From positions 724,609 to 788,608 of the forward strand of contig CAJINV010000018.1 in assembly GCA_905178155.1 (NCBI GenBank): a stretch of 64,000 nt of DNA, given 5' to 3'. This DNA is from Amoebophrya sp. A120 (taxonomy: Eukaryota > Protista > Dinoflagellata). Under the pieces are notes generated by a model. That model did no database searches. It was not told the DNA's origin and saw only the letters and a list, made by a program, of their open reading frames with translations. This document shows positions 3,707 through 50,650 of this stretch, piece after piece; positions within the stretch are counted from its first letter, which is position 1; each line of letters opens with the position of its first letter. Position numbers and translations under genes: made by a program.

Positions 3707-6700
3707 TTATGCGCAGTGATTGAGAAACAGGACCTTGCAGGCGTCCATCTCTTCCCGGCTCCCCGAAAGCTGGATTTCCGTGGAGTCCTTAAGCGACACG
3801 ATCAACTTCGTGCGTTCGTTGTCGGTTTTGTCCGTGATCGCCACATCGTAGTCGTCTTTTGCGGCAAAATACCACTTGTAGTGCTGGCGCGTGGTGGACG
3901 AGGAGGACGAGAGCGCATTGCTACCGCCGAGCATTTCCGTGTTGGTATCGAACGCCGAGGACTGCACCGCCATGCCGTATTGGTTTTGGCTTTGCACCAC
4001 TATGCGGCAAATAATGTACGCCTCCGTCAGAATCACCTCGGATTGGGAAACCTTGTTAAACCGGTGCGCCAGTAGCGCGTCCTCGCAGTTGAACGCCTCG
4101 GCCAGGAAAAGCCTCACCTTCGCGTGACCCAGAAAGTACGGACGCAAAACGCGATCCTCACCGTAGAGCGACCGGGGAAGACGGATTATGGCGCTCTCAA
4201 CTGTTACACTCTCAACTGTTACATGAATTTGTGACGTTAGAATGGCAAAACTGAGAGGGGGAAGATTGCGCCTTTTGCATGACAGATTTGGCGCAGATTC
4301 TCAGCCTGTTTGGCCCTTCGGGAATCTGTCATGCGAAGCAGCTGAATCGTGTCGATTCTGATTGGGATTTTGCATGACAAACCATGTAACAGCTGAGACT
4401 GTAACGTTTGAGAACGCCATACGGATCCGGGGAATGTTGCGAGCCTGAGGATGAGAAGGCGGTACGGTAGTTTGTAGATCGTTTGTTTTATGTTTTTCAG
4501 TGAGAGATCTGATAGAGATAGAGCACACGACCAGAAAGTCGACATCTTCGTGACCGGTTGCGGTTACGAAGAGAAATTTCCCTTACCTACGATAATAAAT
4601 CTCACCGCCATCATCTCTACAAAAAGATGAAATCTAGCTGCACGGTTGCTTTAGCTTTTCTTGTTTTTCTTTTTATGATTTTTTCGTACTTCTTCCTTCT
4701 TGGTCGCTCGTGTACTCCACCCCTGTGAAAGCATCACTATAAGTAAAAACCATGACTGGTATTAGAAAACGCCCTCACATACTGCTATCAGTGCCACCTT
4801 GTACGGGTGTCATAATTTTTCTACGAATGACTCGTAGTGGTCTTAGTTGTACCTTCTGTCGCAAGATAGTGTCGTCTACCCCGATGGCCTGGTCACGTAT
4901 GCCCTCCATGACGGCTTTCAGCCCTTCGCCCACCCCGATAATGGGTTTCGCGAACAGTCCCGCCACCTATCCGAGTGCACAACTGCCCCTCGACGTCCCA
5001 CTGCATTGTAGTAGTGCAATAGCAACAAAAATGGAAAAAGCGTTGGCAAGTCAAGACTGCTACTGCAGGAGCTTTTGCATGACAAATTCACACGGGCTGA
5101 CTCAGTGCTGTCTGGGAAGCTGCCGGCTTCTGTGATGTTCATGCCACAAATGGAGGCAAAAGAAAGCTGTATATTGTTTGCATGTTGACTAATGAGGAGG
5201 GAGTAGAAGGGTTGTGCATTTTCATACCACCCCGCGAGCGGTTCCCGTAGCTACGCGCTCCAAGGACCGGTCCTCCGCCGTTATGAATAAGAAAAAAGTG
5301 CTAGTACAGTTACGCACTGTGTTCTTGCAGAACAACCTTTGTCATGCTAGAAATAGACGTTTCTTGTTGCAGCCCTCGTTTGATACAAGTTGAGATTTTT
5401 CTTTTTTGATACGATCGCTGCACAACAATTATGGATGGAAAACTGCGAAATGTTTCATACCTATATATAAAGTACTAGCTAGCACGGCCCGGCACTGTTT
5501 TGAGCAAGATGGCGACCATTCTTTGCATTTTCTGGCGTCCCCACTAGCACGCTCGGACCGTGCTAGTGGGGACGCCAAAAAAAGCAACCCAGCTGGTTGC
5601 CGCGTGCTTTTGGAACCTACTTATGCTGGCCAGTTTCGAAATATGCGGCTCATTTTTTGGATATATATTCACTTTCTCGCCCGCATAGGTTCCAAAAGCA
5701 TGCGGCAACCAGCTGGGTTGCTTTTTTTGGCGTCCCCACTAGCACGGTCCGAGCGTGCTAGTGGGGACGCCACAAAATTCCAAGAATGGTCGCCATCTTG
5801 CTCAAAACAGGGTCCGACCGTGCTAGCTAGTACTTTATAGGTATGAAACTTCTCTACATTTTCCATCCCTAACAACAATTGCCAGGTTTCCCTGTCATGT
5901 AAAGCAAGTTTGTGTTGCTGAAGGTACAGCTGCAGCCAACGCGTAACTGGACTGACTTTCTTCTTCTTGGGATAGCCGTTGCAGCCTGGTACGGTTGACT
6001 GAATACGCCCGTGATACCGTCGGCGACGCCTGAGATAAACGGGTTCGAAGAGGGTGACCTTTTGCTTCAGCATAATTTGCTGGACATAATATGTCCTTGT
6101 GTGGAAAAAGGAGGACTAGAAGCAAGGGCTTTCAGCTTGGTTTTGCATCGGAGCAGGAGCCCTACCAAGCAGCCCTGCTGAAAAACATCAACGAAATCTT
6201 TATCTTCATGACACGACGACTAGCGACGTAGTTCCTTGGTACTACTATACTACTCGCACCCGTGGAGACGCAGAGGACCCACGAGAAAATGTAAATGTAA
6301 CAAGTGCTATATGCATATAGCTTCAGTTCATCAGATTCATCGCGAGCCTAAAACTTGATCGATCTTTGTTAGTCCTCGTGTAGTACCTTTGACTAGACTC
6401 TCGCCACCCCGGAGGAACCCATCGAAAATGGCCATGCTGTTGTTGCTATGAATTGCAAAAGTATCGCACTGGTATAAATTGCATCGCAAATTTTTTCAAG
6501 AAGAAAAATGAAATTTGTAATGCTATTTTAACCTGAAGAGGGATATTTGTCATGCACGATAGCAATTACTACAAAAAGTACGATACTTTTGCAGTGGATA
6601 GTCGCTCTGTGCTTCGGTATGGTGCCGCTCCCGCAGCTCGCTCAAGGTCGAAGGACCCTGTGCACCGCTATCCCGGCGGCGGTCCTCTTCCTCTGCGTAT

Positions 6701-9700: not shown

Positions 9701-12700
9701 GTTCGCATGACAAACTGTGCTTTTGCATGACAGGCAAAAGGGTCTCTTCTTGGACACGCAGATCACAACCTTTTTGGTCATGCCAGACAAGCATGACAAA
9801 TCTCGCAATCTTCCAGACCCACACATTTTTGCATTTGATACCACCTCCGGGCATCGTTCTTGCGCCTGCTTTATTACCCACCATACCCCCAGGTGGTCCA
9901 CCGCCAGCTGATAGCAAGCCGCCCGCCGTGCCACCGCCACCGGCGGGCGAGAAAGAGGTAGAGGCCCCACTTCCACCGCCTCCGCCAATCATGGCGTCTT
10001 CAATGGCAGCTTGGAACTTGTAGACCAGGGACAACATAATCTGCACCAGTTTCAAGTCGAACATGAGCAGCACCGGTTTGATTTTCAGCCGGACCTTGTC
10101 CAGATACAGGATGTCGTATTTCCCGTACCGTTCCCGAGTGTTGAACGCGCTGCTGGTCAGCGACTGGGCTGTTATCTTCGTTCGCTCCCGCACGTGGAAG
10201 TGCAAAATTGCCTCTGATTTGGTCTTCTCCTCTCGCCGTCTGCAGTATGGGAAAGGACAGAAAAGCGATGAAAAGTCAGGGAAGCGAGTTGTAGTTGAAC
10301 TTGAAATTGGGCTTTCACTTTCTACTTTTGCTGTCCGCTGTGCAGCAAATCCAAATGCAGAACAGATGACAGCACTAGTTTAGTAATCTTCGTAAACCTA
10401 ATCGCTTTCGCTTCCGCGCACACAAAAAATAAAAGATGCGAATGCAATGACAATGTCTGCTAGAAATACAACTGTATCTCTTGGTGTTGCCTCGTCAATA
10501 CTGAGGCAAGGTGCAGTATCAGCCTTGAAAACTACCCGTGTGGCGAAGAGGAAGACCAAATGCAGCCACCAGGGGTAGCGCATATATAGCAACAGACTTT
10601 ATTAAAACTGCACATAATTTCTAGTCATCCATGCTTTCTGACCAGCACATCACGACGCTTTGTCCCACAGGATATCTGGTTTTCGTTTGCGATTTGCCGC
10701 GCGCGCTCGTTGTCGACGAGCGAGGTTTCGGAGCTGTCTTGGAAGTTATGAGCTCCCCCGCGAGGACCCCCTCCCAGCATGGAAGATGAGCCGTCCACAG
10801 CCTCTTCCTGAATCGTTTCCAAGTGCAAATGTTGGGCCTGCACCAGCTGCTGGTGTCCACTTCTGCCACTACCAGGTCCAGCAGACGAACCACCCGAGGT
10901 GGAGCTGCTGCTGCCCCCGCCGCTCGCCCCTCCACCCGAGGACACCAGAATGCTCGGGTCCCGGGCCACGCACACGGGGAAGTGGGTGTCGCGCGCCTGC
11001 GTATCGAATGCAAAAATGTCTGGGTCCGGAAGATTCTGAGACTTGTCACGCACGGTTTGCATGAGCCATGATGTCTGTGATGCATGCCCTAGCATTACAG
11101 GTTTTTTGAGGGATTCTTGATGCCTACTCCGCATGACAAATGCCCTCTCCGCGTAGCAAAAATTAGAATCCTTTTGCTGCTCATGCAACACAAATTTTTT
11201 ACACATCCAAATGCGGCATCACAAGTTGAATTCTTCCAGACCCAGGCACTTTTGCTTTTGATACTGCGTGTCCAACTGCAAATCGCGGATGCTCAGGTCG
11301 TATGCATTGCAAATATGTAGTCTGTGTCTGGAGGAGGACAAGTTTGTCATGCACATTTTCCATGATCCATGATGTCTGTGATGTATGCCATAGCATCACA
11401 GATTTTTTAAAAATCTTCCTGATGCGCCTTCCGCATGAGAAATGCCCTGTCCGCGTAGCACAAATTGAACCCCTCTTGCTGGTCATGCAATACAATTTTT
11501 TTTGGAGTCCAAAAACAGCATGACAAGTTGCGACCTTCCAGACGACCCAGACATAGTTGCATTTGATAGATCGTACTCGTTGTGCGTTGGGTACACGTTG
11601 ACGCAGGTGTAGATCTCCTCCAAATACGCAAAGAGAATTTCCGCGTTCGCGTAGCTATCCACCAAATTCACATCACTTTGCCCGCTGTTGCGCGAAGAGG
11701 AGGACGAAGCGCCAGCGTTGTTTCGCGTTTGCAACAGCGCCTGTTTCGTCGTGTAGCTGTCGAGGGCGTCGCGGATCCGTTCAAAGGTAGTGGTCATCGT
11801 GACGCACGCGCCCTCTTTTCTGTACGAGGAAAGGGTGTTTTTCATGGCTTGAAAGAATTCGTCCGCCCAACTTTTGCTCGGCTTTCTCGTCTTGCCGACA
11901 AGGGAAATACCGATGCCCTTGCAGGCTATGCAACAGGAGAAATTTTCTACCGGTAAGCTATCCATAAGCATGTCTACATTCTTCACGCACTAATATTTTT
12001 ACAAGAAAATGCCTGCTTGCATCAAATGAAATAACTTGCGCAGCGAGCTCATTCAGGCGTCAAGTGACGAAGGCTCAGGTTTGGATTTGATGCCGTGGCG
12101 GTCAGGATAGGCATATGTTGAGATGATGCTGCGAAGTCCTTTTTCTTTCATGCAAGATCATGACCACCGGATGATGTTGATGATCATATACATATTCGCG
12201 ATGGCGTCTTCAACGTACGTACGTGCGCGGTAATATATTTCCCCGTCCTCCTGTGGATACAGTTGATTTTGAACACGCGGGCCATCGATCGGTGCGCCAA
12301 CGGGGCGAGCGCTGCGTAAGCAACTTGGTTCGACGTGGAGGGGATGTTCGGCGTGGCCGTTTGCCTCAGCGCTGGTCCAGAGGGAGCATGCTTCGCTCCA
12401 GAAGACGAAGAGATCTTGAGCCTGTTGCTCGCCTTCATCTTGTCCACATTTGAGGTCACGCTCGTATGGCGTTCTCAAATGTTACACTCTCAACTGTTAC
12501 ACGAATCTGTGATGCTAAAACAGCAACAGGAAAAGGGGCAAGCTTGCACGTCTCGCATCACAAATTTGGCACACATTTAGATGCTGCCTAGCCCTTCGAA
12601 AATTTGTGATGCGAAGCAGCTTGATCGCCTGGCGGCTCAGGGTCATTTTGCATGACAAATCATGTAACAGTTGAGAATGTAACGGTTGAGAACCCCATAG

Positions 12701-36700: not shown

Positions 36701-39700
36701 CAGTGCATTTTTGTCATGATCATCCTCGCGGGGATGGTCTTTCTTGTTCGCGGCACCTCCACCTGAAGACGCTCCTCGTCGTGCTGTCCCTTGCGCTTGC
36801 TGTGCAGCAGCAGAACCAGCTGTCCTCATCTGCGGCAGATTCTGCTGAATCCATTCGTCAAACACGGTCGCGCGCCCGCAATCTGCGTCTTGCGGATTCT
36901 GCTCGAAGTCTTCCACCGTGCTACCGTCCAGTCGCACGCGCAGATTCACGGAGTTCAAGTTCAACAGCAACTCGGTGTGCCTCCTGTACGCAACTCGCTC
37001 AAACACATCCTGAACGTCGCGCAAATACCGGTTTTCCTTGACCGCGACGTCGTCGTCCTGACCTGCTAAATTGTCGAAAAAAACCCGCTTCAAAAAGTTC
37101 CACTCGCGAAAATTCAGCAAGATCGTGACGGCGGATAAATTCACGCGAATTTTGTACGACCAGGGGAAGTACTTCCACTTCAGCGTTTTCGACTGGTGTT
37201 GCCGCTCCAGTGGGCTCAGCATCCAACTCGGCGAGGAGTCCATCGCGGTTGTTCCGCTAGACGTGAAATAATCATGGAGAAACTGGAGTCGCTCGTAACT
37301 CTCAATACCCCGAACGAACTCGACGCTGAGCTCGATATGCAATACAAATTTCCTGCACGACTACACGTACAAAATGCATCACAAATGTCACCATCAACTT
37401 GAAGCATGCCACTTGTGATGCTGGATAGAATTGAAGCAAAATCTTGTCATGCAGAAACCGTATTTGTACTTGTACATCATCATGTACAGGAAATTTCCTG
37501 TGGATACTCGACCGGGGAATCGAACAGCGGATGGCTGTCTGAATTCAGATTTGACTCAGGAGTATTTCCTATGGAAGCGTCAGGTTTGAAATCGTCAAAG
37601 TTGAAATAATTTGTAATGCATAAAATGCATGACCCGAGGCACGTGTGTTGCAGAGCAGGCAAGTGAGGCCGATTGTAAGCCTGTTTGGGCTTCCAGCTCG
37701 AGCTGCTAAAGTAGCATGAGAAAATCGCTCTTCTTTGCCTAAACAGCATGACAAAGTGGATTTAGGGACCACCGAAATTTGTCTTGCGCCACTTGGAAAC
37801 TGGGTTCAGAATTGGCATCCATTTTATGCATGGCAAATTATTTCAACATTGTCGATTTCAACTCTGACACATCCATATTTCCGCTGAGTGAAGTAGAGCT
37901 GCTTGACGTGACGCCAGCCTTGTTAAAATTTCGATTTCCGTTCGTCACCAATCTCCGGAGCTGGATCCCCTTCCCCTCAATCAGAATTCTGTCGTGCCAT
38001 ATAACCTGCTCAGCTGTTAATCTCAAGCGTTACAATAGAATCTGGAATTTGTGTTGCAAGAAGTGCATTATCTAGCCAACTCAAATAGGATTGCGCATGA
38101 CAAGTTCTGGAGTCCCAATCCGCACTGCAATCTGGCGAAATTTGTATTGCACAAAGTGGAATGCTGTCCGAGGCTGTCATGCTCATCATGCAATACAAAA
38201 CCCAGATTCTGTTGTAAAGTTTGAGATTGTAACGTTTGAGCAGGTCATATGCCACCCGTAGTGATTCAGTCTCTTTCTCCGTTGCACCGTCGCAACCGAT
38301 TGCGCGGTGGCGTTCTGCGGATTCATGAAAATTTCGTGGCGCGATATCCAGGAAAAAACACCCATCCACATCGAGTCTCAATTTTTCATACAAAACACGT
38401 ATAAGAAGTCCTGTGTTTGTCGTGCAAAAAATGGATCATGGGGATGGGTTTTTTTTCTGTGGATACGCGAGGCAAGTTTTCCGTAGTTGCTGTCCAGATG
38501 AGGCCTGTCTGGATCATCGCTCGCCGTATAGGTGGTTGAGGGTCCACCGGCTTCGAACGTGTTCTCCTCAAACCCCGCACGATACACATGGTCGGGGTTG
38601 TAGGTGACGATCATCAAAGGGGAAGAACAATTATCCAGTGGATCTGCATTTTTAGTTCCCGTGGTCGCGGCGCTGGCTGCACTTCTGCCGACCTGCACCT
38701 GTTCCACATGATCGCCTAACAAATCCTCCTCCTCGTCTTCGCTGTCATTCGCTTGGCCTTTCGCGATCTCCCAATCCCACTTGTGGTTTGCGGAAGTACT
38801 GGAGGTGGCGAAACTTGCTGACGTTCCTCCGCCTGCGATGTTAGTACCAGAGGCAGTTGTGGCACTCGAGGACGTCGACGCCACGGCCCAGGGCTTTTCC
38901 GTGAACGTGTTCCGTACCGCATCATACTCAAATGTGTTGTTTGCCTTGCACAGCTATCAACAGTAAATTTACCGCACACGTACAAATGCGGCCTCTGCAT
39001 GACAAAACTTGGCTTCGATCCTAGTTTAGCATGACAATTTTTACACCCAGATTGGCCGTGAAATTTCTATTGCATCTTGTACATGTTGTACGGGAAATTT
39101 GTATTGCATAACAGCCTGCTCGCGTCCTCGATGTAGCAAGCCTTGTTCGTGACCTTCAGCGACTCTTCGGTGAAAAGCTCGACCAGGTCCCCCTGACAGG
39201 TCGTGGTCGCTGGGAAATAGATCGACGGTTTCTCGATCGTGATGTCAAGCTCGTAGCTCCGGGGAAAATGCTCCTGCATCGCTTTTTCGACGTGCGGCGG
39301 TTGCTTGTGTCGCGGCGAAGTGCCCATTGGCCCACCGAGAATCCGCCGGGGGGACAACTCCTGCAGGTTGTCGTTGAAAAGATTTTTATTCCCGTTGTGA
39401 ACGAGTAAAGCTTCCGGGAGGATCTGCTGGCGCTGCTGTCCTTGCGCACCTGCTGCAGCTTGCCCCCCCGAAACTACGGATGAATTCTCGTCGAAAGCAG
39501 CAACAACACTTTGCACGCTTTGCCGAAAGCCCCCACTGCTGCCACTGCTGGCCTGCGAAGAACGTCTCCGTTCCTCGCGCTCCATCGCATCTAGGAAATC
39601 GTCGTCCTCATCGTCTACTTGGTAGCTTTGTCTTGACAGATGTTCTTGTGGAGCTGTTTTGTTTTTCCAAATACTAGCGCTGGTTCCATCGTCGTCGTCT

Positions 39701-42700
39701 TCCGGCGTCGAAACGACCCTGCTTGCCGATCTCACAGCGCCACCATCAACCGCCCCTGCTTGCCCTCCTGCTCCAACTGATGATGCCTTTGACAGCGACG
39801 TTCCTGCTTTCGGACTGCTCGTCCCTCCAAGAACCCCGGGACCATGCTTTGGCGTGGCAACGCGGCTCACGCCGATGGGAGCTACTACCCGTGGCTCCGG
39901 CCCAGCGGTTATCGCGGGGATAAATGCGTTGAGAATCCACCGCCAGCACCGCATGAACTTCTCTTTCATAAAGTACAGCTCGGGGGAGTCGAAGTGCAGT
40001 TTCAAGTAATACGCCAGATCCAACGGAAAGTCGTCAAATTGCATCTGGTCCTTGACGTTCAGCGTTTTGACGTAAACCGAGAAAAATTTGGTCTTATCTC
40101 GTTCTTCACCGGATTTGTTTTCATTTTCATCGCCGCTATCTTTATTTTTCTGCTTGTTCTTTATCCCGAGTATAATCGGTTTGAACTGGTCGTTGCTCAG
40201 GTCTTGAATGCAGAAATTCCCAAACTTTGCGTCGAAGACCGTCCGCTCCTCGTACAAATTCAGGTCGAACGAGGAATTTTCGCAACTCGCGTCTATCAAA
40301 GTCAAAAAAGCCCCCACCCCACATCGGAAATGGAAGATGCGCGAGCTTGTGACTCTGTATTTGAGTACACAAGTCGACTCGTATTGCTAGAAGGCCAAGA
40401 GACGAAGCTGCGGCCTAAATTGCAGGTAATCTGTCATGCTGTTTCCCACTTCCAGCTGCCTTCTGTAATCCTGGAGCTGCAAGGCTTTCCCACGCTAGAC
40501 AGCACTACAGTCCGCATCTTTTGCCTTCTAGCATGACAAAGCTGATTTGTGACCACAAATCTGCATCACAGATTTCCGTGTTGATATTGGAAGGGGGCAT
40601 TTTTCATTGTAATAGCGTCCGCAAAGTAGTGGCAGATGTTCACCCCGGACGGGGAGGAGGAGGATTTGATCGTCTCCAGCCACCTCAATTGCAACGCTTT
40701 ACAGCGAAACTGGATCTTGTACTTGAAGGGCCACGCGGCGTTGCCCACGGTGGCGGTAGAGTTTACCGTGCTGGCTTTGGATAGCATCGCGGTCTTATTG
40801 AACAATGTCGAGGCGGATGTCGCGTGGACATTCTGCGGACTCTGCAGTGGAACGGAGGTTGTTCTACAATTCTTGTGTGCCCCGCCGGACGCAGCGACTC
40901 CTACACCGGGATAAATTGGGCTGGGCGTGTTAAAACTTTGCATTTTCAGCGGCTGCGGAACCTGCAGGGTCGTGCTAGCTGTCCCCGGCGCAGCTCGTCC
41001 CCCGGACGAGAAAACATTATTTCCTGGGCCAGTACAACTACCTGGCATAGATTTGATATTCGTATTCTGCTGGCGCGCCGCCGACCCGGAATGCGCGCTT
41101 CCCCAATCGCTCGATTGATGCCGCCCTGCATTTGGCTCCGGGGTTGTCAGCATCGCGGCTCCGGTGGTTCCGACGATATTTTTGCCCGGATTTGGGCTCG
41201 GCACGGCCGTCGAAGTGGCAGAACCGGGTGGTCCTGCACCACAGTATGGAAGAGTCAGGTTTGAAATCGACACAGTTGAAATAATTCGTGATGCACAAAA
41301 TGGATGCCAGTTGTAACCCAGCTTCCAAGTGGCGCATGACAAATTTGGGTAGAGTGAACCGATGAAATCCAATTTGTCATGCTAGTTGGGTAAGGAAGAC
41401 GCCTTTTGTGTTTGTCATGCTACTGCAGCAGCTCAGTCGCTACCCCTCGACAGGCTTACAATCTGCCTCACTTGCCTACTCTGCAAGACAGGCACTCTGT
41501 GAGCTGCATTTTATGCATGACAAATCACTTCAACTTTGTCGATTTCAATCCTGACACTGCCATACACCTGCGTTCTGCAGTATCGTCTCCTGCTCCTCCT
41601 CTTTCTGCCGGAGGATATGGCGTTCTCAAATGTTACATTCTCAACTGTTACATGATTTGTCATGCAAAAACACTATCGCTCTGCACACGATCAAGCCTTC
41701 TCCGCATGACAACTTCTCGACGCGCTAGATACCATTATAATCTGCTCCAAACGTGTAATGCAAAAGGGCCAATCTTTTCCCTTTCACTTTTGCCATTCTT
41801 GCATGACAAATTTCATGTAACAGTTGAGAATGTAACGTTTGAGAACGCCATAGAGGAGCTCCAATCTCTCGAAAATCGGTTCCACCGGCGGGATGTCTTT
41901 TAAAAAGCACAGAAAATAAGTCACGATCAGCGGTTCGAAATTTAGTTTCAGAGATTTCAAATCGATATCCACCTTCCACATGGCTCCGTGGCAAAATTCG
42001 TACATTTGCTCCAGTTTCGGCGCCCGTATGGGACTCTCAACTGTTACATTCTCAACTGTTACATGAATTTGTAATGCAAGAACAGCGAAAGTGAAAGGCA
42101 GGATCTTCCAAATTTTGCATTACAGATTTGACACAGACTCAGATGCTGTTTAGCCCTTCGAGAATTTGTCATGCTCAGCCGCTTGACCGTGTGGCTGTTT
42201 ATGGTATTTTTGCATGACAAATTCATGTAACAGTTGAAAATGTAACGTTTGAGAACGCCATAGCCCGCTCGTGCACCGTGTTGATGCCAATACGGAGGAA
42301 GTTCTGCTCCTCATCTTCCGGCTCAACACGCAGGAGATCCACTTTCTTGTTTGTAGTTCCAAGATTATCTGTGACCACAATCTCTCGATCTTGGATATGG
42401 CGTTCTCAAACGTTACATTCTCAATTGTTACATGGGTTTGTCATGCAAAATCAACATCAACATCCACAGTTTGAAGCGACTTCGCATGACAAATTCCCGG
42501 AGGGCTAAACAGCATTTAAATCTGTGCGTAATTTGTAATGCTAGAGCCGCAATTGTCCCCCTTTGAATTTTGCTATTCTTGCATTACAAATTCATGTAAC
42601 AGTTGAGAATGTAACAATTGAGAGTCCCATATTGGACCTCTAGCGCGTTTGGCCGTGTAATCGCCGCCTTTTCTAGCCCAACGTCGTATCAACTGTAATA

Positions 42701-45700
42701 AAAATGTCTGGGTCTGGAAACTTGTGATGCTGGGTGGCGTATCATGATGAGGCCACAGCTGCTGGCTCAGCGTGACAAGTTTCTGAGCTCCTAGGTCTTG
42801 CCTATTCTGCATGACAAGCTGCGCTTCTGCATCACAGAAAAGCGGAGCTCTTGGGTAACGTGCATGACAGATTTAAGAGTCTTCATGCCAGACAAGCATG
42901 ACAAACATGAATTCTTCCAGACCCAGACATTTTTACAGTTGATACGTCGATGGAAGTGACCACCGGGCGAGATTTGATCTTCAGCTGGGTCCGCCGCGTC
43001 GTCAGCTCCAGGTAGTCTTCTACAGTCGGCGGCACAATCGTCCCACCTTCGAAGCCGGGGGCCATCGAGCCTGCAATTGCGCTGGACGAAGGACCCGCCC
43101 CGGAGCTATTTTCCATCGAGTTGCTGGCCACAGTAGAAGATGAAAAACCAGCTCTATCTTCGTGCCGCTCCACAACGGGACTGAGAATGTCTCTTCCCGG
43201 CGTCAGCGCGTCGAATAACTGCAAGCACAACTCCCGGACAGCAACATCGAGGAGGAATGATTCTCGTGTGAACAGATTGTCCAGGACGTATTTGTCGTCT
43301 TGCGTCATGGAAATGGGCACAATCGCCCCGTGCGCCGCCCCGGTTTTCTGGTACGCGCCAAAGGTCGTGAACGCCAAGCGTAGTGATTCGATGACCGTGT
43401 CATAGCACTGCCGATCCAGCATCAGCTCCAGTTTCGGCAAATCGCCAGAAATGTGGGTTAGCGTCTGCCTATTCACCTCATTTGGCGGGACGATGTCGAG
43501 CAGGCAGAGGTCGAGGTTCAACCCTAGGGAAAAATCGCGGATCACCTGTTTGATAGTGGAATTCTTTTTCTTGATATTACCCTGCTCTGACATGGAGGTT
43601 ACATTATGTCGCATCCGGAGGAATTCCGGGATCTGCGAGCCTGATTGCAGGCAAGCCGCGCGGACGTTTTGAAGCGTCAGCGCATATCTCTCTGCGGAGA
43701 GGAGCACGTCATTGAAGTCTTTCAGCATCGCAATCGACCGGCGCTCGGCCTTGGAGAAAGAGGAAGACGCTGCATTTATTTTTCCACTTCTCGGCGAGGG
43801 GGCAGCTGCGCCTTCTCCTCCTGCGCTCGGCGATGAAGCAGCTGAGGCGGTGGGATGATCGGGCTTATTTTTCGCATCATGATCTTGTTCTGCTTTATTT
43901 GCCATATGTCCTGCAAGAACTTCGGTTTCAGCTTTCTCCAGCACTTCCGACGCATCCTGCACCAATTTTGTGATGCTCCCAACAGACCGCACTTGCAGGT
44001 AGCCCAAGTGTAAAGCCAGCGCGGGGGCGTCCGCGCGGTAGAAGAACCGGGTGGGTAAGACCAACGTCGGGGCATCGATTTGCACCACGAGTTCCACCGC
44101 GGATTCCGCAACCCGCCGAATCCGCGAGCGCCACCCGGGTCGTGGCTCTTGTTGGGCGGGGGAACCTGTCGTGGTTCCAGTTGCGGCATTTTGCGCTTGT
44201 GTTGGTCCTCCTTCTTGCCGATGTTGGTCTCCAGGCGCGCTTGCACTTCCTCCAACATTAGGACCACTTTGAAGACCACCTCCATTTGTAGTAGAAGTCC
44301 CTTGCTGGTGGGCCACTACCTCACCGCCCGCGTAGTCGAAGGGGTCATCCACGTCTTCAGCTTCTACTCCAGATGGCTCTTCGTCGTTCGCAGAAGCCGA
44401 CGCTCCACCCGTGGTTCCAGCCACACTGCTCGCTGGCGCTCGGAAAAAATCGCCGATCTGCATCAAGTATCAAATGTAAAAATGTCTGGGTCTGGAAGAA
44501 TGCAACTTGTCGTGCTGATCTTGGATTCTAAAAAAATTTGTATTGCATGAGCAGCAAAGAGAGAGTCCAAGTTTTGCTACACGAAAAGAGCATTTGTCAT
44601 GCGGTATAGGCATCAGAGAGCCCTCACAAAATCTGTGATGCTAGGGCATGCATCACAGACATCAGGAGTCATGCAGAATGTGCAGGACAAACCTGGCAAT
44701 CTTCCAGATCCAGACATTTTTACATTTGATATCAAGATCCGGCGCTGGTAATCGATCACCAAGTTCTCACCCTCGATTTCTACCCGGGGAAGCGCCCCCT
44801 CTTGGGACGACGAGGACCCTAAAGCTCGTCCATGTTGAAAAGTACTTTCCGAGCTTCTATCCTGTGCAAAAGTATCGTACTCGTACTAATCGCAGATATG
44901 CATGACATCTACCTGAAATTGAAATAGCATGACAAATTGAATTTTTTTTCTTGGGAAAACTTGTAATGCATTCTATACTAGTACGATACTTTTACTTTTG
45001 CAATGCATAGCTTCCAGCGTACGACAACCCGTTGGAAAGAAATTCGATTTTCAGGAGCGCGTTTATGGCGTTCTCAACTGTTACATCCTCAACTGTTACA
45101 TGGATTTGTCATGCAAGAACGGCAACAGTAAAAGAGGGGACCTAAAGCGTCTTGCATGACAGATTTGGCACGGATTCTCAGCCTGTTGGGCTCTTCGGGA
45201 ATTTGTCATGCGAAGCAGCTTCATCATCTCGACTCTGATTGCCATTTTGCATGAGAAATCATGTAACAGTTGAGAATGTAACATTTGAGAACGTCATAGC
45301 GTTTTCCAGCTGTTTCTTCAGCAACACCGGGCGCTCTTCTTCCGGGATGAAATTCACGCGCTGACTTATCCTGTGCAAAAGTATCGCACTCGTATTCTAA
45401 TCATGCATTACAAATCTTTTTCTTAAGGTAAATCCGCACTACAAATTTTAGCTCTTATTCTCATGCTGAGGAAATTTGTCATGCATTTATACGAGTACGA
45501 TACTTTTGCAACTCATATGACTGTTGTGATTCTGAAACAAGTCATCCTCATCCGCGGCAACCGACTCAGCTTCCTGAAAAGATTCCATATCCTCAGACTC
45601 GGTACCGTGGACCGATGACTGATCCTGGGTGGCGGATGATGCAGCTGCCTGACCGCCCGGAGGTGGGGGCGGTGGGGGAGGTGGTGGTGGCGGGCTTCCA

Positions 45701-48700
45701 CTACTTCCAGCCTTGCTAATTGTAGTACCAGCGCCCGCGGTCGCTGTAGCTGTAGTTCCACCATCGCCTCCTCTGCTGGAATTGCCGACAGAAGTCGTCT
45801 CCAGCGACGCGGCATAATTGTGGTCCGCCGACGTTGTAGAGGACAAGTGATCGGAAGTTGTACCGCTACCATGTCCTCCTCCTCCCTTGTGAGATGAAAC
45901 TACAAGATCGGTCGGTTTTCTCTGCCGCAAGCCCGAAAACGACGGCAAGATGGAGTCCCGTCGGGACCTAAAATTATAGTCCTCGTCATCGATTACGTTG
46001 AAGCTGTTTATAGAGTCGTAGTTCAACCTAATCGAGTCCGCCCTCTCCCCGTAGTCGCCACGGTAAATCAGATCCAGGGCCGGCGTCGGATTCAATGCGT
46101 CTTTCGACTCCCCGGCGACGTGAATCGTGCCCAGGTATCCAAGAAAAAAAGACTGTAGCCGTTCTTGGAGGATTAGCATGACAAATATCTCTCGCGTGAC
46201 AGCAAAAACCTGTCATGCGCAGATGGCACGTGAAAACGCCCTTGAATGGACTTTACAATGCAGGCACAGCATGACAGGCGCAATCACTTTGCATGTTGCT
46301 GCGCATCACAACTTTACACTAACAACGCTTCTTTCTTGGATACCAGCTCCACGATCACGACTGTGCCCAACTGGATGCCGCTCTCCTGCAAAATTTTCCG
46401 TGCGTTGATCCCCGCGCCCTTGGCCTTCCACTCGGCAATGCTGGTCTCGACTTTCGCGGCCTGTTCCGGGGTCAGCTGGGATTGCTGGAGGAGGTACTCA
46501 GTTTCATCCGCTTCGAAGACCGTGTTCGCGAAGGAAGGTTTTGACGATTTCATTTTCATCGACGGTAGTGGGCCTTGAATCTGCAGCAGGTGCTGTTTCA
46601 GTTTCGGGCTGGAGGTTGGGGAGAGGGCGGCCGCGCCGGCACTAGTAGTGAGAGATAAAGTTCCTGAACTATGATCTTTATCAGATTGTGCAAAAGAAAA
46701 AGTCTTCTTCATTTTCGCCTCCAGAAACCGTCTTGCTGCGCCCTCACTGGTACCGTTATTGCAGTACTGCACGCGCAAGTCTTCGACCTTCCCCGCGAAC
46801 CGATATGGCAAGGAAAAATCCCCCTTCCCCACATCGAGACGAAATCTCTGATGCTGGACTTGCGTACACAGATCAGCACTGTCTTGCAGTAGAGGACTGC
46901 GGGCCCATATCGCGCCAATGTAGAGAGGTTTTGGCCTAGGCACGTAGCACGAGGAACGCCTATGCTGTTGGACCAACAGCATTACAAACCGCCTGCATAA
47001 TGGGGCGGAGCCTATGCCATTGCTTTCTTGCAAGACAGACACGATTTGTGGTCACAAATCAGCATCACAAATTCTCTGCGGCGTGCCTTTTAGATATGGG
47101 GAGGGGAGAGTTTTCCTTACGATAACCGACTGCCGTTTTTCTGCAACAGATCCAGCTCCACGCCGAGTAACTCGATGTCTACTTCCACCTGATTGCGCCT
47201 TTGCAGCTCCGCCTCGGTCGGAGGCTGTGTGAGATTTTCTGTCAGTTCCTGTACGTTTTCGGTCAGCTGCTCCAACTCCAGCTCTGCTTGGTCCTTATTT
47301 TCAGCAGGGATGGTCGCCGCGCTGGAAGGAGGAGCTCCTGCAGCTCTAGTCGTGGAGGAGGCCTGAGTTCCTACACCTTCCTTGTCGCTCTGCTTTGGCG
47401 TACTACTACTATCACCTTCGTTTGGATTTGCGGTTGAAATAGAAGTTGGACCACCGTCTTCTCGTTTTGTTGCATTTGACGTTCCATCAGCATCTTTCTG
47501 CTCGTCTTCCGTCCCACCACCGCCCCCAAATCGGCCGAAAAACCGCGACTTCAGCCAGTTCTTCACGCCCTGGGTGCGGGAAACCGGTTGCGGCGTCGTT
47601 TTCGCCTTTTGTAAGAGGTACTCTTCCATCCATTGCTTCAGGGATTGAAAGTTCCAAACCTCAACTTCTAGCTGCTGCATCTGCTCCAGATCCGCCCCTT
47701 CCAGCTCCGGTTTATTGTCTCCGCCGCCGGCTTGGTTCAGCAAAACGTCGCGCTTCGCCTGTAGCGCGAAAAACAACGCTTTCTGCCCCTCTTCTACCTT
47801 TTGCATTTGCTGCGCGAACTTCATGGCGAAAGTGTAGTTTCTCTTTGGAACCGCCGAAGTCCTCCCAGCACCGCGCGACAGGCCTCGGATGTGCAAGGCA
47901 CAAAGCATCGCCCACTGCCACCGTGCCTTCGCCAGCTTCGACTTGTTCACGCGGGCCAGGGAAGCTGAAGCAGCTGCAGCGGCATTTGTACTTGATGTTT
48001 GTGTTTCGTCTGCATTTAATATTTTTTCCCCTCCAACATCATTATCGCTCAGCACTTTTTTCTCGAACGGCCTGACCATTACTTCGCGCAATGGTAGGAA
48101 CACCTGGACCTTCCGCAAGTACTCGGCTTCAAAGAGAAAATGCCGGCTGATCACGGAGGCGACTTCGCGGTAGTCTTTCAAGACCTGCTCATCCAGTTTC
48201 GCCGCGATGTGCTTCAGCCGCCCTTTCACGTAGTAGCTCGCGTCCGAAGTGTTGATCGAGTGTTCGAGCAGTAGAATAAACGAGATCGGCGTGAGCACGT
48301 GCTGCAACTTCTGTTGGTTGTTCGCAATTTCGCTATCCAGCTGCTCCATCTTCACGGACCGATTCTGAAACTTCTGCATCAGCAGTTCTCTAGGGGACAG
48401 TTTAGGAACTGAATTGGTTTGCTGACTCGCCCCCTCAGCTCCACGGCGGGGGCCAACATCCGATGTACTACTAGCTCCTGCGTCCACCTTGGCCTTGTCA
48501 GCTGCGGCCGCCGCGAGTGCTTTTTCCTGGGCCGCCTTCTGTTCTTTGTGCACTAGAACGAGTTCCTGTTGCAGCTTCAGCTTTTCCTCTTTCAACTTTT
48601 TCAACTTCGCAAACGCATCCGTTTCCTTCTTTGACCGCAGGCACAGCAGTTGAAACCCGTTCAACTCAGCCTTCTTGTGCACGTGCATCGCCTCGCCCTG

Positions 48701-50650
48701 GAGATTGCGCTGGATCCGGGTGGGTTGCAAAGTCCTAGGGTCCACGTTTTGCACCGCGATCGAGGAAAGCTGCAGGACGTAGGCAAATTGCTGCTGCTGT
48801 AGTTCATTTCCATTTGTGGGAGCACCACGTAGTGATGTGACCACAGCCGGAGCGGGTGTCGCTCCTGCAACAACAGTTGTACCAGTAGATCCAGTGGTTA
48901 TCGTACCGGCATGGGTTCCCCGTGGCGTAGTTGCGAGGCTGTTTGCGAGAGTTTGCCCCCGGTAGGTAAGCTCCACGTCCTCGAGTTTAAAGCGCAGATT
49001 ATCCTTTATCCGGTAGAACACCGAGGTGCTCCAAGAAGCTCCACCTTGCGACGCCGGGTTGGACTTCTGCTGCTGCTGTCCTCCGGTCGTCGTGCCACCG
49101 CGGGGAGAGTCTTTGGGCTGCTGCTGGTCTGCAGAAGTTGCTGCACTAGCAGTGCTGCCTGCTCCAGTTGCAGATTTAGTACTCTCTGCTCCTTCCCCCT
49201 TCGACGTCTCGGTAGAAGTACCACCACCTCCGTTCTGTTGCAAAATCGCTTCGTTCAGCCCTGACCGCATTTCCACGCCCTGGAGCCGTTTGTGCCGCAG
49301 CTCTTGCAGTCTTTCCCGGGCGAGCTTGCCGCTGGCCTTTATGGATGTGTCAGGATCGAAATCGACAAAATCGAAAAACTTGCGATGCATAAAATGTAGA
49401 GCACTGAACGCCTGTATTGGTAAGCAGGCAATGGCAAATGAGACCGATTGTAAGCCTGTTCAGGGGTATGCGGTGCGCTGCCAGCGTAGCATGACAGGAG
49501 GAGTCTTCTTTGTCCAAACAGCGCGACAGACTGGGTTTGGGTGCTCCCGAAGTTTGTCATGCGCCACTCGGAAACTGAGGCTCCAACTGGTATCGATTTT
49601 ATGCATCAATTTTTCGATTTTGTCAATTTCGATTCTGACACTTTCATAGCCTTCTTGTTTCCGATAGACTCGTCATCCTTCTCGATGTTAATCACTACGG
49701 CCTTCAGGGTGATCTCGATATGACAGTGCACAACTCCCCCTACCCCTAATTTGTCATGCATAATCCCAAATGACGTCTTTTCTCTGTAGCACTTCTTGCA
49801 TAACAGGATTTTCGAGCCGAAACAGCACTAGAATCGGTCCTCGCGAATTTGTCATGCAAAAAGAGCACTCATGCCAGTACTTGTGTTGCTGCTTATGCAC
49901 TTCAAACGAGTGGGAGGGGGAGTTGTGCACTGTCGTACTCGATGTCTTGCGCCGTCAAGCCCAGGGCCCACGTCACCGTCACCTCGCCCACGGATCCGGA
50001 GAACTTGAAGGGAATCCCAAGCAGCCGCCGCATGGAGAGTGTGGAAGAGAAAAAATGACTTAGTGATCCTGTAACTTTGTATTGCGCCGAAAGAACTACA
50101 TGCGTATGCGAGACGAAGGCCGCCATCAACATCATGCTCCTGTGCTCGACGTGGACTATACAACTTGCCGACAGGAGCACAAGAAATTTGCAACTACGTA
50201 TATCACGGTGCTGGAGCGAATTTCAGGGCCAGCACCAGTGTTGACTGTGCACGACAATGAGATTGACATGCAAGCGCACGTAGCTAGAAATCCTTCTTCT
50301 CTATTCTCTCATGCAATATGCCGACGGTCCTGCGCGACATAGATAACTGGAATTTCGAAAATGAATACCTCTACAACCTGCAAACTGAAACACAAACGTG
50401 TACGTGTTTCATCGTAAGTACGTCAACGCTTCATCAGTTTTTCATCCTCTTGGATAGCATCAGGCTTGAGCTTCACGTTCTTCAACGTTCCGGAGCCCTC
50501 CACCCCTTGTCCCCGCAGCATAGACCCGAGGCCGCCGCCGGAGAGGAGGCCCTGCGTTACCTGAAAATCCTCGCGCTGGAAATCGAGGTAGGTCCCCACG
50601 TTGTTCTGGACCGCCGGCCAGATCCACTTCTCTAGCATACCAGCGGCCAT
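3707..50650 (-). CDS. VPS13: Giant VPS13 (chorein)-family bridge-like lipid transfer protein, about 69 introns, roughly 7,400 aa after manual splicing
   Basis: The assembled N-terminus MAAGMLEKWIWPAVQNNVGTYLDFQ...GSGTLKNVKLKPDA|MRRLLGIPFKFSGSVGEVTVTW resembles Chorein_N. The C-terminal exons read FFGNPQNFLNYVGDGAYAFLKEPYEG...GIGKGTSSLMRN, DGFLRGGESLVKG|VADGITGVFSQPYQAA, TGTARGVAGLFAKPIIGVGEG and RIRLPRSLYGEDRVLRPY, then a PH-like tail to the stop at 3707; these match VPS13_C/ATG2_C-type motifs. Long exons match the large minus ORFs (47117-49390, 42883-44466, 39067-40317, 35261-37342, 28798-30276). Not every junction was translated and the length is an estimate. Confidence 0.9.
4187..4421. mobile_element. 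Introner family C (about 235 bp; TIR TATGGCGYTCTCAAMYGTTACAYTCTCAACTGTTACA), representative copy
   Basis: Direct repeat CGGAT; the TIR contains an internal tandem TCTCAACTGTTACA unit. Other copies: 12465-12699 (GCTCG), 24159-24394 (TGCGA), 33248-33482 (CAGTT), 41616-41852 (GAGGA), 42027-42262 (GCCCG), 42396-42631 (TTGGA), 45064-45298 (GCGTT). Related variants: 38000-38249 (TGCCA), 55843-56109. Confidence 0.93.
4445..4852 (-). other. Canonical GT-AG intron of VPS13
   Basis: Minus strand CAG AAG|gtacaac...cctcag|GCT CGC joins TILRQK to ARNIPRIRLPR in frame. Confidence 0.75.
5452..5849. mobile_element. Foldback/MITE with about 165-bp inverted arms, nested inside introner 5282-5974
   Basis: About 5452-5618 is the near-perfect reverse complement of about 5686-5849; each arm contains the hairpin GGCGTCCCCACTAGCACG-N7-CGTGCTAGTGGGGACGCC. 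Confidence 0.88.
6030..6386 (-). other. Canonical GT-AG intron of VPS13
   Basis: Minus strand GTC AAA G|gtactac...tttatctcag|GC GTC gives SLVKGVADGITG in frame. Confidence 0.8.
6731..7116 (-). other. Canonical GT-AG intron of VPS13
   Basis: Minus strand GGA CT|gtcaacc...tctag|G GCG CAG gives FNQGLAQNVTSL in frame. Confidence 0.7.
8376..8654. mobile_element. Introner family G (about 279 bp; TIR TATCCTGWGTAAAAACRTCCCCAC), representative copy
   Basis: Direct repeat TCATG; an inverted-orientation copy lies at 53734-54012 (CGGGG) and a degenerate copy at 13676-14092. Confidence 0.88.
14980..21492 (-). mobile_element. 6.5-kb foreign insertion inside a family E introner; probably a decayed Ty3/Gypsy-like pol remnant
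   Basis: The segment is C/A-skewed on the + strand, contains no introners and has no long ORF; it is bounded by ATTT on both sides. Broken minus-strand fragments resemble RT (RLSPFGPRALRFEMEMERWL, about 19600-19670) followed by integrase (SI*YLGPY...LVQLVDFGTG about 18230-18295; GRYER about 17920; RDAPHSG about 17840). I found no LTRs. The insertion itself is well supported; its identity is tentative. Confidence 0.5.
18003..18040. repeat. Imperfect (AG)n microsatellite
   Basis: tagagagatagagagagaaagagaaatagagagagagg. Confidence 0.8.
22210..22531. mobile_element. Introner family F/H (about 300-322 bp; TIR TAT-N5-GAAAAATCCCCC), representative copy
   Basis: Direct repeat AAGAG. Other copies: 9231-9540, 27816-28121 (CCTGG), 46804-47124 (ACCGA). 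Related: 8845-9144 (TTCAT), 40294-40614 (GCGTC). Confidence 0.9.
23638..23785. mobile_element. Introner family B (mostly about 150 bp; TIR TATNNNNTGCAAAAGTATCG), representative copy
   Basis: Direct repeat TCAGA. Other copies: 839-1024, 3230-3398, 6447-6600, 14584-14767 (GAATC), 22012-22161 (TTCTC), 23342-23564 (CTGGG), 24476-24625, 25592-25906 (degenerate), 32781-32942 (GAAGT), 44858-45009 (GCTTC), 45367-45517 (TGACT), 55263-55431, 61498-61646, 62375-62523 (GTAGT), 63897 to the window end. Confidence 0.92.
24676..24937. mobile_element. Introner family A (about 253-285 bp; TIR TATCAAATGYAAAAATGTCTGGGTCTGGAA), representative copy
   Basis: About 30-bp TIR with TAT...ATA ends and a 5-bp direct repeat CATCG. 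Other copies (flank): 7349-7603 (CAGCT), 8063-8317 (GTTCC), 9588-9840 (CCACC), 11002-11263 (CTGCG), 11301-11568, 13217-13469 (CGTCC), 21640-21900 (degenerate), 26331-26597, 30344-30612 (TAGTG), 32478-32739 (GGACT), 33663-33923 (TTCCC), 42687-42944 (CGTCG), 44468-44731 (TCAAG), 53413-53678, 55472-55730 (GATTC), 58700-58961 (GTCCC), 62056-62339. Confidence 0.93.
34104..34392. mobile_element. Introner family K (TIR TATGANAGTGCACAAC), representative copy
   Basis: Direct repeat GCGTT. Other copies: 4968-5226 (CCACC), 7710-7996, 49719-49937 (CTCGA, right end GTA). Confidence 0.82.
34559..34667. mobile_element. Introner family E (short forms about 110-120 bp plus longer relatives; TIR TATCCARGAAAAA), representative copy
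   Basis: Direct repeat TCCTC. Short copies: 28784-28901 (GGTTG), 31376-31497 (CAGGT), 38345-38465 (CGCGA). Longer or looser relatives: 5282-5974 (GCCGT), 14947-21576 (TCTCG), 22977-23262 (TCCGC), 27130-27348 (GGAAC), 27387-27647, 35131-35353, 46136-46342, 50040-50456, 58156-58452 (TTGCA). Confidence 0.88.
37570..37877. mobile_element. Introner family D (about 295-320 bp; TIR TATGGAWGYGTCAG..TTGAAATCG), representative copy
   Basis: Direct repeat TTTCC; nearly identical to 12782-13094 (CCCTC) and, inverted, to 61699-61992 (TTTGT). Other copies: 416-720 (AGGTC), 30666-30979 (GCTTC), 41245-41564, 49340-49648 (GCCTT). Confidence 0.93.
38955..39110. mobile_element. Introner family J (about 155-170 bp; one end TATGCAATACAAATTTCC), representative copy
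   Basis: Direct repeat ACAGC; relatives are 37336-37506 (CTCGA) and 58989-59320, which shares AAAACTTGGCTTCGATCCTAGTTTAGCATGACAA. Confidence 0.82.

What the first reader, a model, noticed from the sequence alone, without database searches (positions are those of the whole stretch)
3707..50650. About 66 non-GT-AG TAT...ATA transposon-like introns obeying one 'element + 5 nt' excision rule in a single gene
Seen: at least nine families with different TIRs share TAT...ATA ends, usually an A-run about 7 nt inside, and 5-bp flanking direct repeats with no GT/AG consensus. Removing the element plus one repeat restores the frame at every junction I translated (e.g. SWSE|KDLH at 14947-21576, PIEE|TRDF at 34559-34667). 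Known: non-canonical introns with inverted and direct repeats (introner elements) are described in Amoebophrya genomes, and to my knowledge their splicing machinery is unresolved. Inference: precise removal of so many elements from a conserved gene implies a dedicated structure-guided excision system working alongside the spliceosome.
Basis: partly seen in the sequence, partly recalled or inferred. Interest (0 to 1): 0.9.

Follow-up and report, generated by a model that had tools for sequence, protein, structure and literature searches.

The report
Known Amoebophrya introners, splice point located
One huge gene of the marine parasite Amoebophrya A120 is interrupted by 66 small transposon-like introns that lack normal splice signals, a published oddity of this organism, and this gene shows that each tested one is cut at the same fixed spot beside its paired ends, likely by an altered form of the normal splicing machine.

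Summary
Removing 66 TAT…ATA elements plus 5 nt each, two GT-AG introns and one unresolved intron gives a stop-free 7,427-codon VPS13-like frame. A spliced contig and the published A120 gene model (2,121 of 2,121 residues identical) back 32 of the 66 junctions; 34 rest on the frame alone. The window is Amoebophrya A120, whose introners Farhat 2021 described with this signature (TAT, 7 nt, A-run, 3-5 nt repeats) while leaving the border unknown.

Added here: 16 elements have imperfect repeats, and all 10 testable ones fit only one shared cut, exon|N-TAT…ATA-NNNN|exon. That puts U and A at intron positions +2 and +3, as in the gene's GT-AG introns (GTAC). The terminal TA never changes (0 of 264 sites). 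A shared internal motif recurs every 31-32 bp.

Best reading: hairpin-guided splicing by an altered spliceosome (0.55), against a separate nuclease-ligase (0.33). No test of the chemistry was possible. The scan noted similar introns in other protists.

The parts
3707..50650 (-). VPS13-like host gene, 70 exons, 7,427 aa
   Evidence: Open frame; aa 5307-7427 identical to published model P0004; C-terminus matches VPS13 proteins at E 1e-17 to 1e-28; weak N-terminal match
4187..4421 (-). introner, family A (235 nt)
   Evidence: contig joint; P0004
4445..4852 (-). ordinary GT-AG intron (starts GTACAA)
   Evidence: contig joint
4968..5226 (-). introner, singleton
   Evidence: contig joint; P0004
5282..5974 (-). 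introner, singleton, holding a long internal foldback (about 5430-5870)
   Evidence: contig joint
6030..6386 (-). ordinary GT-AG intron (starts GTACTA)
   Evidence: contig joint
6447..6600 (-). introner, family C; imperfect repeat (k<=2)
   Evidence: contig joint; P0004
6788..7105 (-). introner, singleton; imperfect repeat (k 1-3)
   Evidence: contig joint; P0004
7349..7603 (-). introner, singleton by BLAST
   Evidence: contig joint; P0004
7710..7996 (-). introner, singleton; imperfect repeat (k<=1)
   Evidence: contig joint
8063..8317 (-). introner, family G
   Evidence: contig joint; P0004
8376..8654 (-). introner, singleton
   Evidence: contig joint; P0004
8845..9144 (-). introner, singleton
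   Evidence: contig joint; P0004
9231..9540 (-). introner, family F; imperfect repeat (k<=3); GT-AG at k=1
   Evidence: contig joint; P0004
9588..9840 (-). introner, family G
   Evidence: contig length check; P0004
10246..10674 (-). introner, singleton; imperfect repeat (k<=1)
   Evidence: contig piece end; P0004
11002..11263 (-). introner, family B
   Evidence: P0004
11301..11568 (-). introner, family B; imperfect repeat (k<=1)
   Evidence: contig piece start
11927..12259 (-). introner, singleton; imperfect repeat (k<=3)
   Evidence: contig piece end; P0004
12465..12699 (-). introner, family A
   Evidence: P0004
12782..13094 (-). introner, family D
   Evidence: P0004
13217..13469 (-). introner, family B
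   Evidence: P0004
13676..14092 (-). introner, singleton; imperfect repeat (k 1-4)
   Evidence: contig piece start; P0004
14584..14767 (-). introner, singleton
   Evidence: P0004
14947..21576 (-). introner of family E enlarged to 6,630 nt by an insertion of about 6.5 kb (about 14980-21497), still removed as element + 5
21640..21900 (-). introner, singleton, starts TAC; imperfect repeat (k>=1)
   Evidence: P0004
22012..22161 (-). introner, family C
   Evidence: P0004
22210..22531 (-). introner, family F
   Evidence: P0004
22977..23262 (-). introner, singleton
   Evidence: P0004
23342..23564 (-). introner, singleton by BLAST (ends as in family C)
   Evidence: P0004
23638..23785 (-). introner, family C
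   Evidence: P0004
24159..24394 (-). introner, family A
   Evidence: P0004
24476..24625 (-). introner, family C; imperfect repeat, synonymous, register untested
   Evidence: P0004
24676..24937 (-). introner, family B
   Evidence: P0004
25592..25906 (-). introner, singleton, starts TAC; imperfect repeat (k<=1)
   Evidence: P0004
26331..26597 (-). introner, singleton; imperfect repeat, untested
   Evidence: frame only
27130..27348 (-). introner, singleton
   Evidence: frame only
27387..27647 (-). introner, singleton; imperfect repeat, untested
   Evidence: frame only
27816..28121 (-). introner, family F; GT-AG at k=1; a second ATA end lies at 28093
   Evidence: frame only
28784..28901 (-). introner, family E
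   Evidence: frame only
30344..30612 (-). introner, family B
   Evidence: frame only
30666..30979 (-). introner, family D
   Evidence: frame only
31376..31497 (-). introner, family E
   Evidence: frame only
32478..32739 (-). introner, family B
   Evidence: frame only
32781..32942 (-). introner, family C
   Evidence: frame only
33248..33482 (-). introner, family A
   Evidence: frame only
33663..33923 (-). introner, family B
   Evidence: frame only
34104..34392 (-). introner, singleton
   Evidence: frame only
34559..34667 (-). introner, family E (shortest, 109 nt)
   Evidence: frame only
35131..35353 (-). introner, singleton; imperfect repeat, untested
   Evidence: frame only
37336..37506 (-). 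introner, family H
   Evidence: frame only
37570..37877 (-). introner, family D
   Evidence: frame only
38000..38249 (-). introner, singleton
   Evidence: frame only
38345..38465 (-). introner, family E
   Evidence: frame only
38955..39110 (-). introner, family H
   Evidence: frame only
40294..40614 (-). introner, singleton
   Evidence: frame only
41245..41564 (-). introner, family D; imperfect repeat, untested
   Evidence: frame only
41616..41852 (-). introner, family A
   Evidence: frame only
42027..42262 (-). introner, family A
   Evidence: frame only
42396..42631 (-). introner, family A
   Evidence: frame only
42687..42944 (-). introner, family G
   Evidence: frame only
44468..44731 (-). 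introner, family B
   Evidence: frame only
44858..45009 (-). introner, family C
   Evidence: frame only
45064..45298 (-). introner, family A
   Evidence: frame only
45367..45517 (-). introner, family C
   Evidence: frame only
46136..46342 (-). introner, singleton; imperfect repeat, untested
   Evidence: frame only
46804..47124 (-). introner, family F
   Evidence: frame only
49340..49648 (-). introner, family D
   Evidence: frame only
49719..49937 (-). introner, singleton, starts TAC
   Evidence: frame only
50057..50457 (-). first intron, borders unresolved; sense start C-TATCC like an introner, no matching repeat at the other end
   Evidence: 16 in-frame candidates passed the filter; no RNA or protein covers it

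Best explanation
These 66 elements are Amoebophrya A120 introners, likely small non-autonomous DNA transposons that left 5-bp target duplications, and every testable one is missing from the message from 1 nt before the opening TAT to 4 nt after the closing ATA, a cut likely made by an altered spliceosome guided by the pairing of the two ends. Shown: the elements, the repeats, the element + 5 nt removal (32 of 66 by contig or gene model), and the register at 10 of 16 imperfect repeats. Inferred: the ends fold into a stem that brings the exons together. The stem would replace G+1 and the final AG as landmarks, while U+2/A+3 of N-UAU would be read in the register of GUA. The shared GCAT[GCT]ACA motif is likely a DNA-binding site for the mobilising protein rather than a branch point. 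Untested: lariat chemistry, the branch point and the proteins involved.
For: Register: 3 junctions require k>=1 (6788, 13676, 21640), 4 require k<=1 (7710, 10246, 11301, 25592), and 3 looser ones agree; the chance that all ten ranges include k=1 under random cuts is 8e-4. At this cut +2 is T and +3 is A in 66 of 66, and the two GT-AG introns start GTACAA and GTACTA. Farhat Table S4 lists 9 of 9 leading A120 pairs with T at +2 and 9 of 9 A25 pairs as TT-NN, where the A25 repeat starts TTA. The terminal TA/TA shows 0 changes in 264 sites while the repeats differ at 25 of 330 (P 4e-5 at half that rate), so the ends stay under selection after insertion. Folding z is below -2 in 54 of 64, and the A-run/U-run pairs with probability above 0.5 in 49 of 64. 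A 6.5-kb insertion does not shift the cut. Farhat found 83 of 89 spliceosomal proteins and U2, U4, U5 and U6 but no U1 in A120. A review reports spliceosomal removal of TIR-derived non-canonical introns in Fritillaria.
Against: +1 does not differ from exon composition (G 23, C 20, A 18, T 5; p 0.14), and the last two bases are free (AG 6 of 66). No sense-specific signal was found: the first 55 positions from either end do not differ (lowest p 0.068), and the internal motif is symmetric (79 sense, 78 antisense), so no branch-point signal was found. The match of TA to GTA has a prior of about 1 in 6 registers and rests on only two GT-AG introns in this gene. The Table S4 pairs may reflect aligner preference. 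In Euglena, stem-guided introns with a similar stagger are argued to be non-spliceosomal. The contig and the gene model may share source data.
Confidence: 0.55

Rival explanations
1. A separate endonuclease-ligase system, independent of the spliceosome, reads the terminal stem and cuts 1 nt before and 4 nt after it.
For: No G+1 or AG is required, and there is no sense-strand asymmetry. 7 of 8 families occur in both orientations. Euglena introns follow 5'-N3 CDG…CHG N5-6|R with a longer 3' arm as well and are reported to leave as circles without lariats (review). U1 was not detected in A120.
Against: The register places the invariant U and A exactly where GT-AG introns have them, and A25, with a different repeat, also shows T at +2. 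Farhat reports the same repeat structure in 15% of canonical A120 introns, a continuum. No candidate enzyme is named in the passages read.
Confidence: 0.33
2. The register is not one fixed rule: different elements use different cuts inside the repeat, or a mixture, and k=1 is only the commonest.
For: Only 10 of 66 junctions are informative, all in one gene. Contigs and gene models hide minor forms. Farhat calls the sites variable and places the repeats 1-5 nt from the splice sites.
Against: All 10 ranges include k=1, and it is the only value they share. The variability in the paper is what sliding inside perfect repeats would give.
Confidence: 0.15
3. The elements are removed from DNA before transcription, as ciliate IESs are, and not from RNA.
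For: TA-bounded inverted ends recall ciliate IES ends (recalled, not tested). No DNA run was laid, so a joined DNA form was not looked for.
Against: The assembly holds the elements in place. Raw RNA reads of runs X6 and X8 contain introner ends, so such elements are transcribed. One repeat of 5 bp is lost at a staggered point rather than one TA being left. Nuclear dualism is not known for this group (recalled).
Confidence: 0.04

Closest known systems
Introner elements of Amoebophrya sp. A120 (Farhat et al. 2021, PMC7789003; abstract, sections 10, 11, 16, 36 and supplement passages read, figures not seen)
   Same: Same organism and genome. Inverted repeats start TAT, then 7 looser bases, then an A-run; 3-5 nt direct repeats with 5-bp examples; hairpins; many families; about 240 nt.
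   Different: The paper's text leaves the border position unknown or variable. The passages read give no fixed N|TAT…ATA-N4 register, no count of invariant ends and no shared internal motif with 31-32 bp spacing.
Nonconventional introns of Euglena (PMC12501133, passages; review PMC11282704 section 6)
   Same: End-pairing stem, repeats at the borders, no GT-AG, a fixed offset with the longer unpaired arm on the 3' side, and the same use of non-slidable introns to fix the border.
   Different: Euglena: N3-CDG…CHG-N5-6|R; here N1-TAT…ATA-N4. Circular products are reported for Euglena and untested here.
Non-canonical introns of Fritillaria borealis (review PMC11282704 section 6; original paper not read)
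   Same: TIR- and TSD-bearing transposon-derived introns without GT-AG.
   Different: They have preferred dinucleotides (AG-AC, AG-AT) and are reported as spliceosomal; here only +2/+3 and -7 to -5 are fixed.
IS3EU/GingerRoot DNA transposons (PMC10045372 and PMC12730594, passages)
   Same: TA..TA termini; TAYGG..CCRTA in fungal IS3EU, which resembles families A and D here.
   Different: Their duplications are usually 6 bp against 5 bp here (0 of 66 perfect at 6 bp); no transposase was found in the parts of the window searched.

Membership tests
Amoebophrya A120 introner elements | Located in an A120 gene as an RNA-supported non-GT-AG intron | tested here: met
   P0004 is A120 model GSA120T00014761001 and equals the spliced frame over 34 junctions; contig joints
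Amoebophrya A120 introner elements | Inverted repeat starting TAT, 7 looser nt, then at least 3 A | tested here: met
   TAT in 63 of 66, TAC in 3; A at positions 11-14 in 46-55 of 66
Amoebophrya A120 introner elements | Direct repeat of 3-5 nt at the borders | tested here: met
   5 bp, perfect in 50 of 66
Amoebophrya A120 introner elements | Repeated families of similar introns | tested here: met
   8 families, 42 of 66 elements, 66-92% identity
Spliceosomal (U2-type) introns | GT/GC…AG ends | tested here: not met
   2 of 66 at the located cut; 4 of 66 at any slide
Spliceosomal (U2-type) introns | Branch-point signal near the 3' end on the sense strand | tested here: inconclusive
   The motif GCAT[GCT]AC contains U-n-A-y but is equally kept on the antisense side
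Spliceosomal (U2-type) introns | Lariat intermediate and dependence on snRNPs | not testable with these tools
   Needs RNA chemistry or lariat reads
Euglena nonconventional introns | N3-CDG…CHG-N5-6|R signature | tested here: not met
   Ends are N1-TAT…ATA-N4; first exon base A19 C19 G24 T4
IS3EU/GingerRoot | TA..TA termini | tested here: met
   66 of 66
IS3EU/GingerRoot | 6-bp target duplication | tested here: not met
   0 of 66 at 6 bp, 50 of 66 at 5 bp
IS3EU/GingerRoot | Cognate DDE transposase | not testable with these tools
   No whole genome held; the 6.5-kb insertion has no Pfam match
VPS13 family (host gene) | VPS13 N-terminal, VAB and C-terminal domains | tested here: inconclusive
   No VPS13 Pfam hit on 42 single exons or on P0004; C-terminal 300-370 aa match 9 of 9 long proteins tried at E 1e-17 to 1e-28, and 7 of 7 long homologues scanned carry VPS13 domains; N-terminus only 7.5 bits

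The most novel reading that the evidence does not exclude
Amoebophrya A120 removes its tens of thousands of introners with a spliceosome-independent, structure-reading nuclease-ligase that cuts 1 nt before and 4 nt after a terminal RNA stem whatever lies inside, convergent with Euglena, so that one transposon system can insert at almost any exon site and in either orientation without harm.
Probability: 0.3. Interest if true: 0.85.

Novelty: already known. Interest (0 to 1): 0.42.

Why it matters
How Amoebophrya removes more than 60% of its introns without GT-AG is still open in the papers read. The elements are not new, but a fixed cut point turns a vague hairpin idea into exact predictions: the first and last base of the excised RNA, where a lariat must start, and which minigene mutations should block or shift splicing. 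It also gives a simple annotation rule for this genome. The published model covers 2,121 of what appear to be 7,427 residues.

Tried and rejected
No whole genome was held, so nothing was counted genome-wide. Raw RNA runs X6-X8 barely cover this gene (93, 3 and 414 reads laid, nearly all partial matches to repeat ends) and gave no joints. No listed holder is on record as RNA; X5 is only guessed to be RNA, though its contig also lacks both GT-AG introns. Of 35 joints, 15 were shown: 13 match the model, and 2 (7603-8063, 9800-13438) do not and likely come from other copies of the repeats. RNA beyond position 22971 was not seen, so 27387, 35131 and four other imperfect repeats remain untested. Hidden GT-AG sites inside the repeats were rejected (4 of 66). 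Registers k=0, 2, 3, 4 and 5 are each contradicted by at least one junction; k=4 would have fixed an A at -2 and was the symmetric alternative. Pseudogene was rejected: the frame is open and shows 51-57% identity to relatives across junctions. A search with the 479-aa exon at 28903-30339 found no longer homologue (weak evidence). The 6.5-kb insertion gave no Pfam hit above cut-off in 105 open pieces or in six frames read through with X, and an Atlas hit of 0.76 only. Element lengths show no 32-bp period (p 0.45). The T shortage at +1 (5 against 16 at the mirror position, p 0.016) was not counted as evidence, because exon composition and codon phase confound it. Paper searches for a later mechanism or register found none beyond Farhat 2021 and a review; Roy 2023 and Henriet 2019 were not read.

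Full report
Observation. Scans for inverted ends with flanking repeats and a walk along the reading frame give 66 elements between 4187 and 49937, in a minus-strand gene from 50650 to 3707. 63 start TAT, 3 start TAC and all 66 end ATA on the sense strand. The flanking repeat is 5 bp: perfect in 50 of 66, 305 of 330 sites, against 0 of 66 at 3, 4, 6, 7 or 8 bp and a shuffled mean of 0.9. Removing each element plus 5 nt, two GT-AG introns and one first intron of unresolved borders gives 7,427 codons with no internal stop. BLAST groups 42 elements into 8 families of 66-92% identity, 7 of them in both orientations; 24 are singletons.

Splicing evidence. One 5,361-nt contig of run X5 (RNA is the tool's guess) lacks the elements. 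11 element joints and both GT-AG introns appear among the 15 joints shown of 35. The model matches the contig's coordinates at 15 of 15 checkpoints from 3600 to 22971, spanning 25 elements including the 6,630-nt one. Database protein P0004 equals the model at 2,121 of 2,121 residues across 34 junctions, 32 of them elements. The other 34 elements rest on the open frame only. The contig and the gene model may come from the same data and are not counted as independent.

Identity. P0004 is named by its source as Amoebophrya sp. A120 model GSA120T00014761001. The C-terminal 300-370 residues match nine long proteins at E 1e-17 to 1e-28, and the seven long homologues scanned carry VPS13 domains. Pfam finds no VPS13 domain on 42 single exons, and the N-terminal match is weak, so 'VPS13-like' is the fair label. 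Farhat et al. 2021 (PMC7789003) describe A120 introners whose inverted repeats start with TAT, seven looser bases and at least three A, with 3-5 nt direct repeats and 5-bp examples.

What is added. The paper's legend calls the border unknown, because a perfect repeat lets the cut slide. Sixteen elements here have imperfect repeats. Let k be the number of bases of the upstream repeat that go with the intron. The contig gives k 1-3 at 6788, k 1-4 at 13676, k<=1 at 7710, 10246 and 11301, k<=2 at 6447, and k<=3 at 9231 and 11927 (four from joint rows, four from piece ends with the length check). The gene model adds k>=1 at 21640 and k<=1 at 25592, and agrees at the six others where the residue differs. 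Only k=1 fits all ten (8e-4 under random cuts); six imperfect repeats are untested. The intron is thus N-TAT…ATA-NNNN. Its +2 and +3 bases are T and A in 66 of 66, as in the two GT-AG introns (GTACAA, GTACTA), while +1 and the last two bases are free. Table S4 of the paper lists T at +2 in all nine leading A120 pairs and all nine A25 pairs, which agrees but may reflect aligner bias.

The ends are under selection. The two outer bases at both ends show 0 changes in 264 sites, while the repeat copies differ at 7.6%. At most one element with a decayed end could have been missed in this gene. Predicted folding is strong (median z -6.8; 54 of 64 below -2), with the TAT/ATA tip and the A-run/U-run paired around a looser stretch at positions 4-7. 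An insertion of about 6.5 kb into a family E element does not move the cut.

Internal motif. GCAT[GCT]ACA occurs 157 times in 60 of 65 short elements, once in 22.3 kb of exons, never in the two GT-AG introns, and 1.5 times in shuffles. Copies sit mostly 33 or 43 nt from their own end and 31-32 bp apart. With one representative per family, 8 of 40 spacings fall at 30-34 bp against 1.8 expected (P 0.0006). It is symmetric between strands (79 and 78), so it is more likely a binding site on DNA, three helical turns apart, shared by unrelated families, than a branch point. That reading is inference. It would point to one mobilising protein, although Farhat found no transposase candidate in A120.

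Mechanism. Insertion by a transposase making 5-bp staggered cuts is inferred from the repeats; TA..TA ends recall IS3EU/GingerRoot, but those usually make 6 bp. For removal I favour an altered spliceosome that uses the stem to align the exons and still reads U+2/A+3 (0.55). The reasons are the register, the near-complete spliceosome without detectable U1, and the Fritillaria precedent as reported in a review. A separate nuclease-ligase remains plausible (0.33): there is no sense-specific signal in 55 positions from either end, no branch-point signal, and Euglena uses a similar stagger that its authors consider non-spliceosomal. Nothing here tests the chemistry.

Papers seen: PMC7789003 (abstract, sections 10, 11, 16, 36, passages, supplement passages; figures not held, and Figs 3 and S19-S25 may bear on the register claim); PMC12130899, PMC12501133, PMC10045372, PMC12730594, PMC12005148, PMC13326754 and PMC12787238 (passages); PMC11282704 (passages and section 6). 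Searches found no later account of the register or the mechanism; subscription papers were not searched.

Verdict. A real feature, already known; interest 0.42 for the located cut and the tests that it opens.

Noticed in passing
window 14980-21497: About 6.5 kb inserted in a family E introner, C/A-rich on the + strand, flanked by what looks like an ATTT duplication, with no long open frame. A minus-strand stretch near 15650-15750 reminds me (recalled) of the C-terminal motif of DIRS-type tyrosine recombinases, but Pfam and the Atlas gave no support.
   Followed up: partly
window 5430-5870: A long foldback (83% self-match over about 450 nt) nested inside the introner 5282-5974, which is still removed precisely.
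   Followed up: partly
window 416-720, 53734-54012, 55472-55730, 58700-58961, 61699-61992, 62375-62523: More TAT…ATA elements with perfect 5-bp repeats in the neighbouring genes; others with imperfect repeats (3230-3398, 53413-53678, 59508-59697, 60963-61147, 61498-61646) could extend the register test.
   Followed up: no
window 26331-50650: The published model P0004 starts at residue 5307 of the 7,427-residue frame, so the public annotation appears to truncate or split this gene.
   Followed up: partly
window 27816-28121: The 3' + strand end of this element is duplicated (ATA plus repeat at 28093 and at 28121); only the outer end keeps the frame.
   Followed up: partly
window 59400-62700: A locally duplicated, repetitive region with near-identical introner pairs (59508 and 60963; 61498 and 62375), seen by eye.
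   Followed up: no
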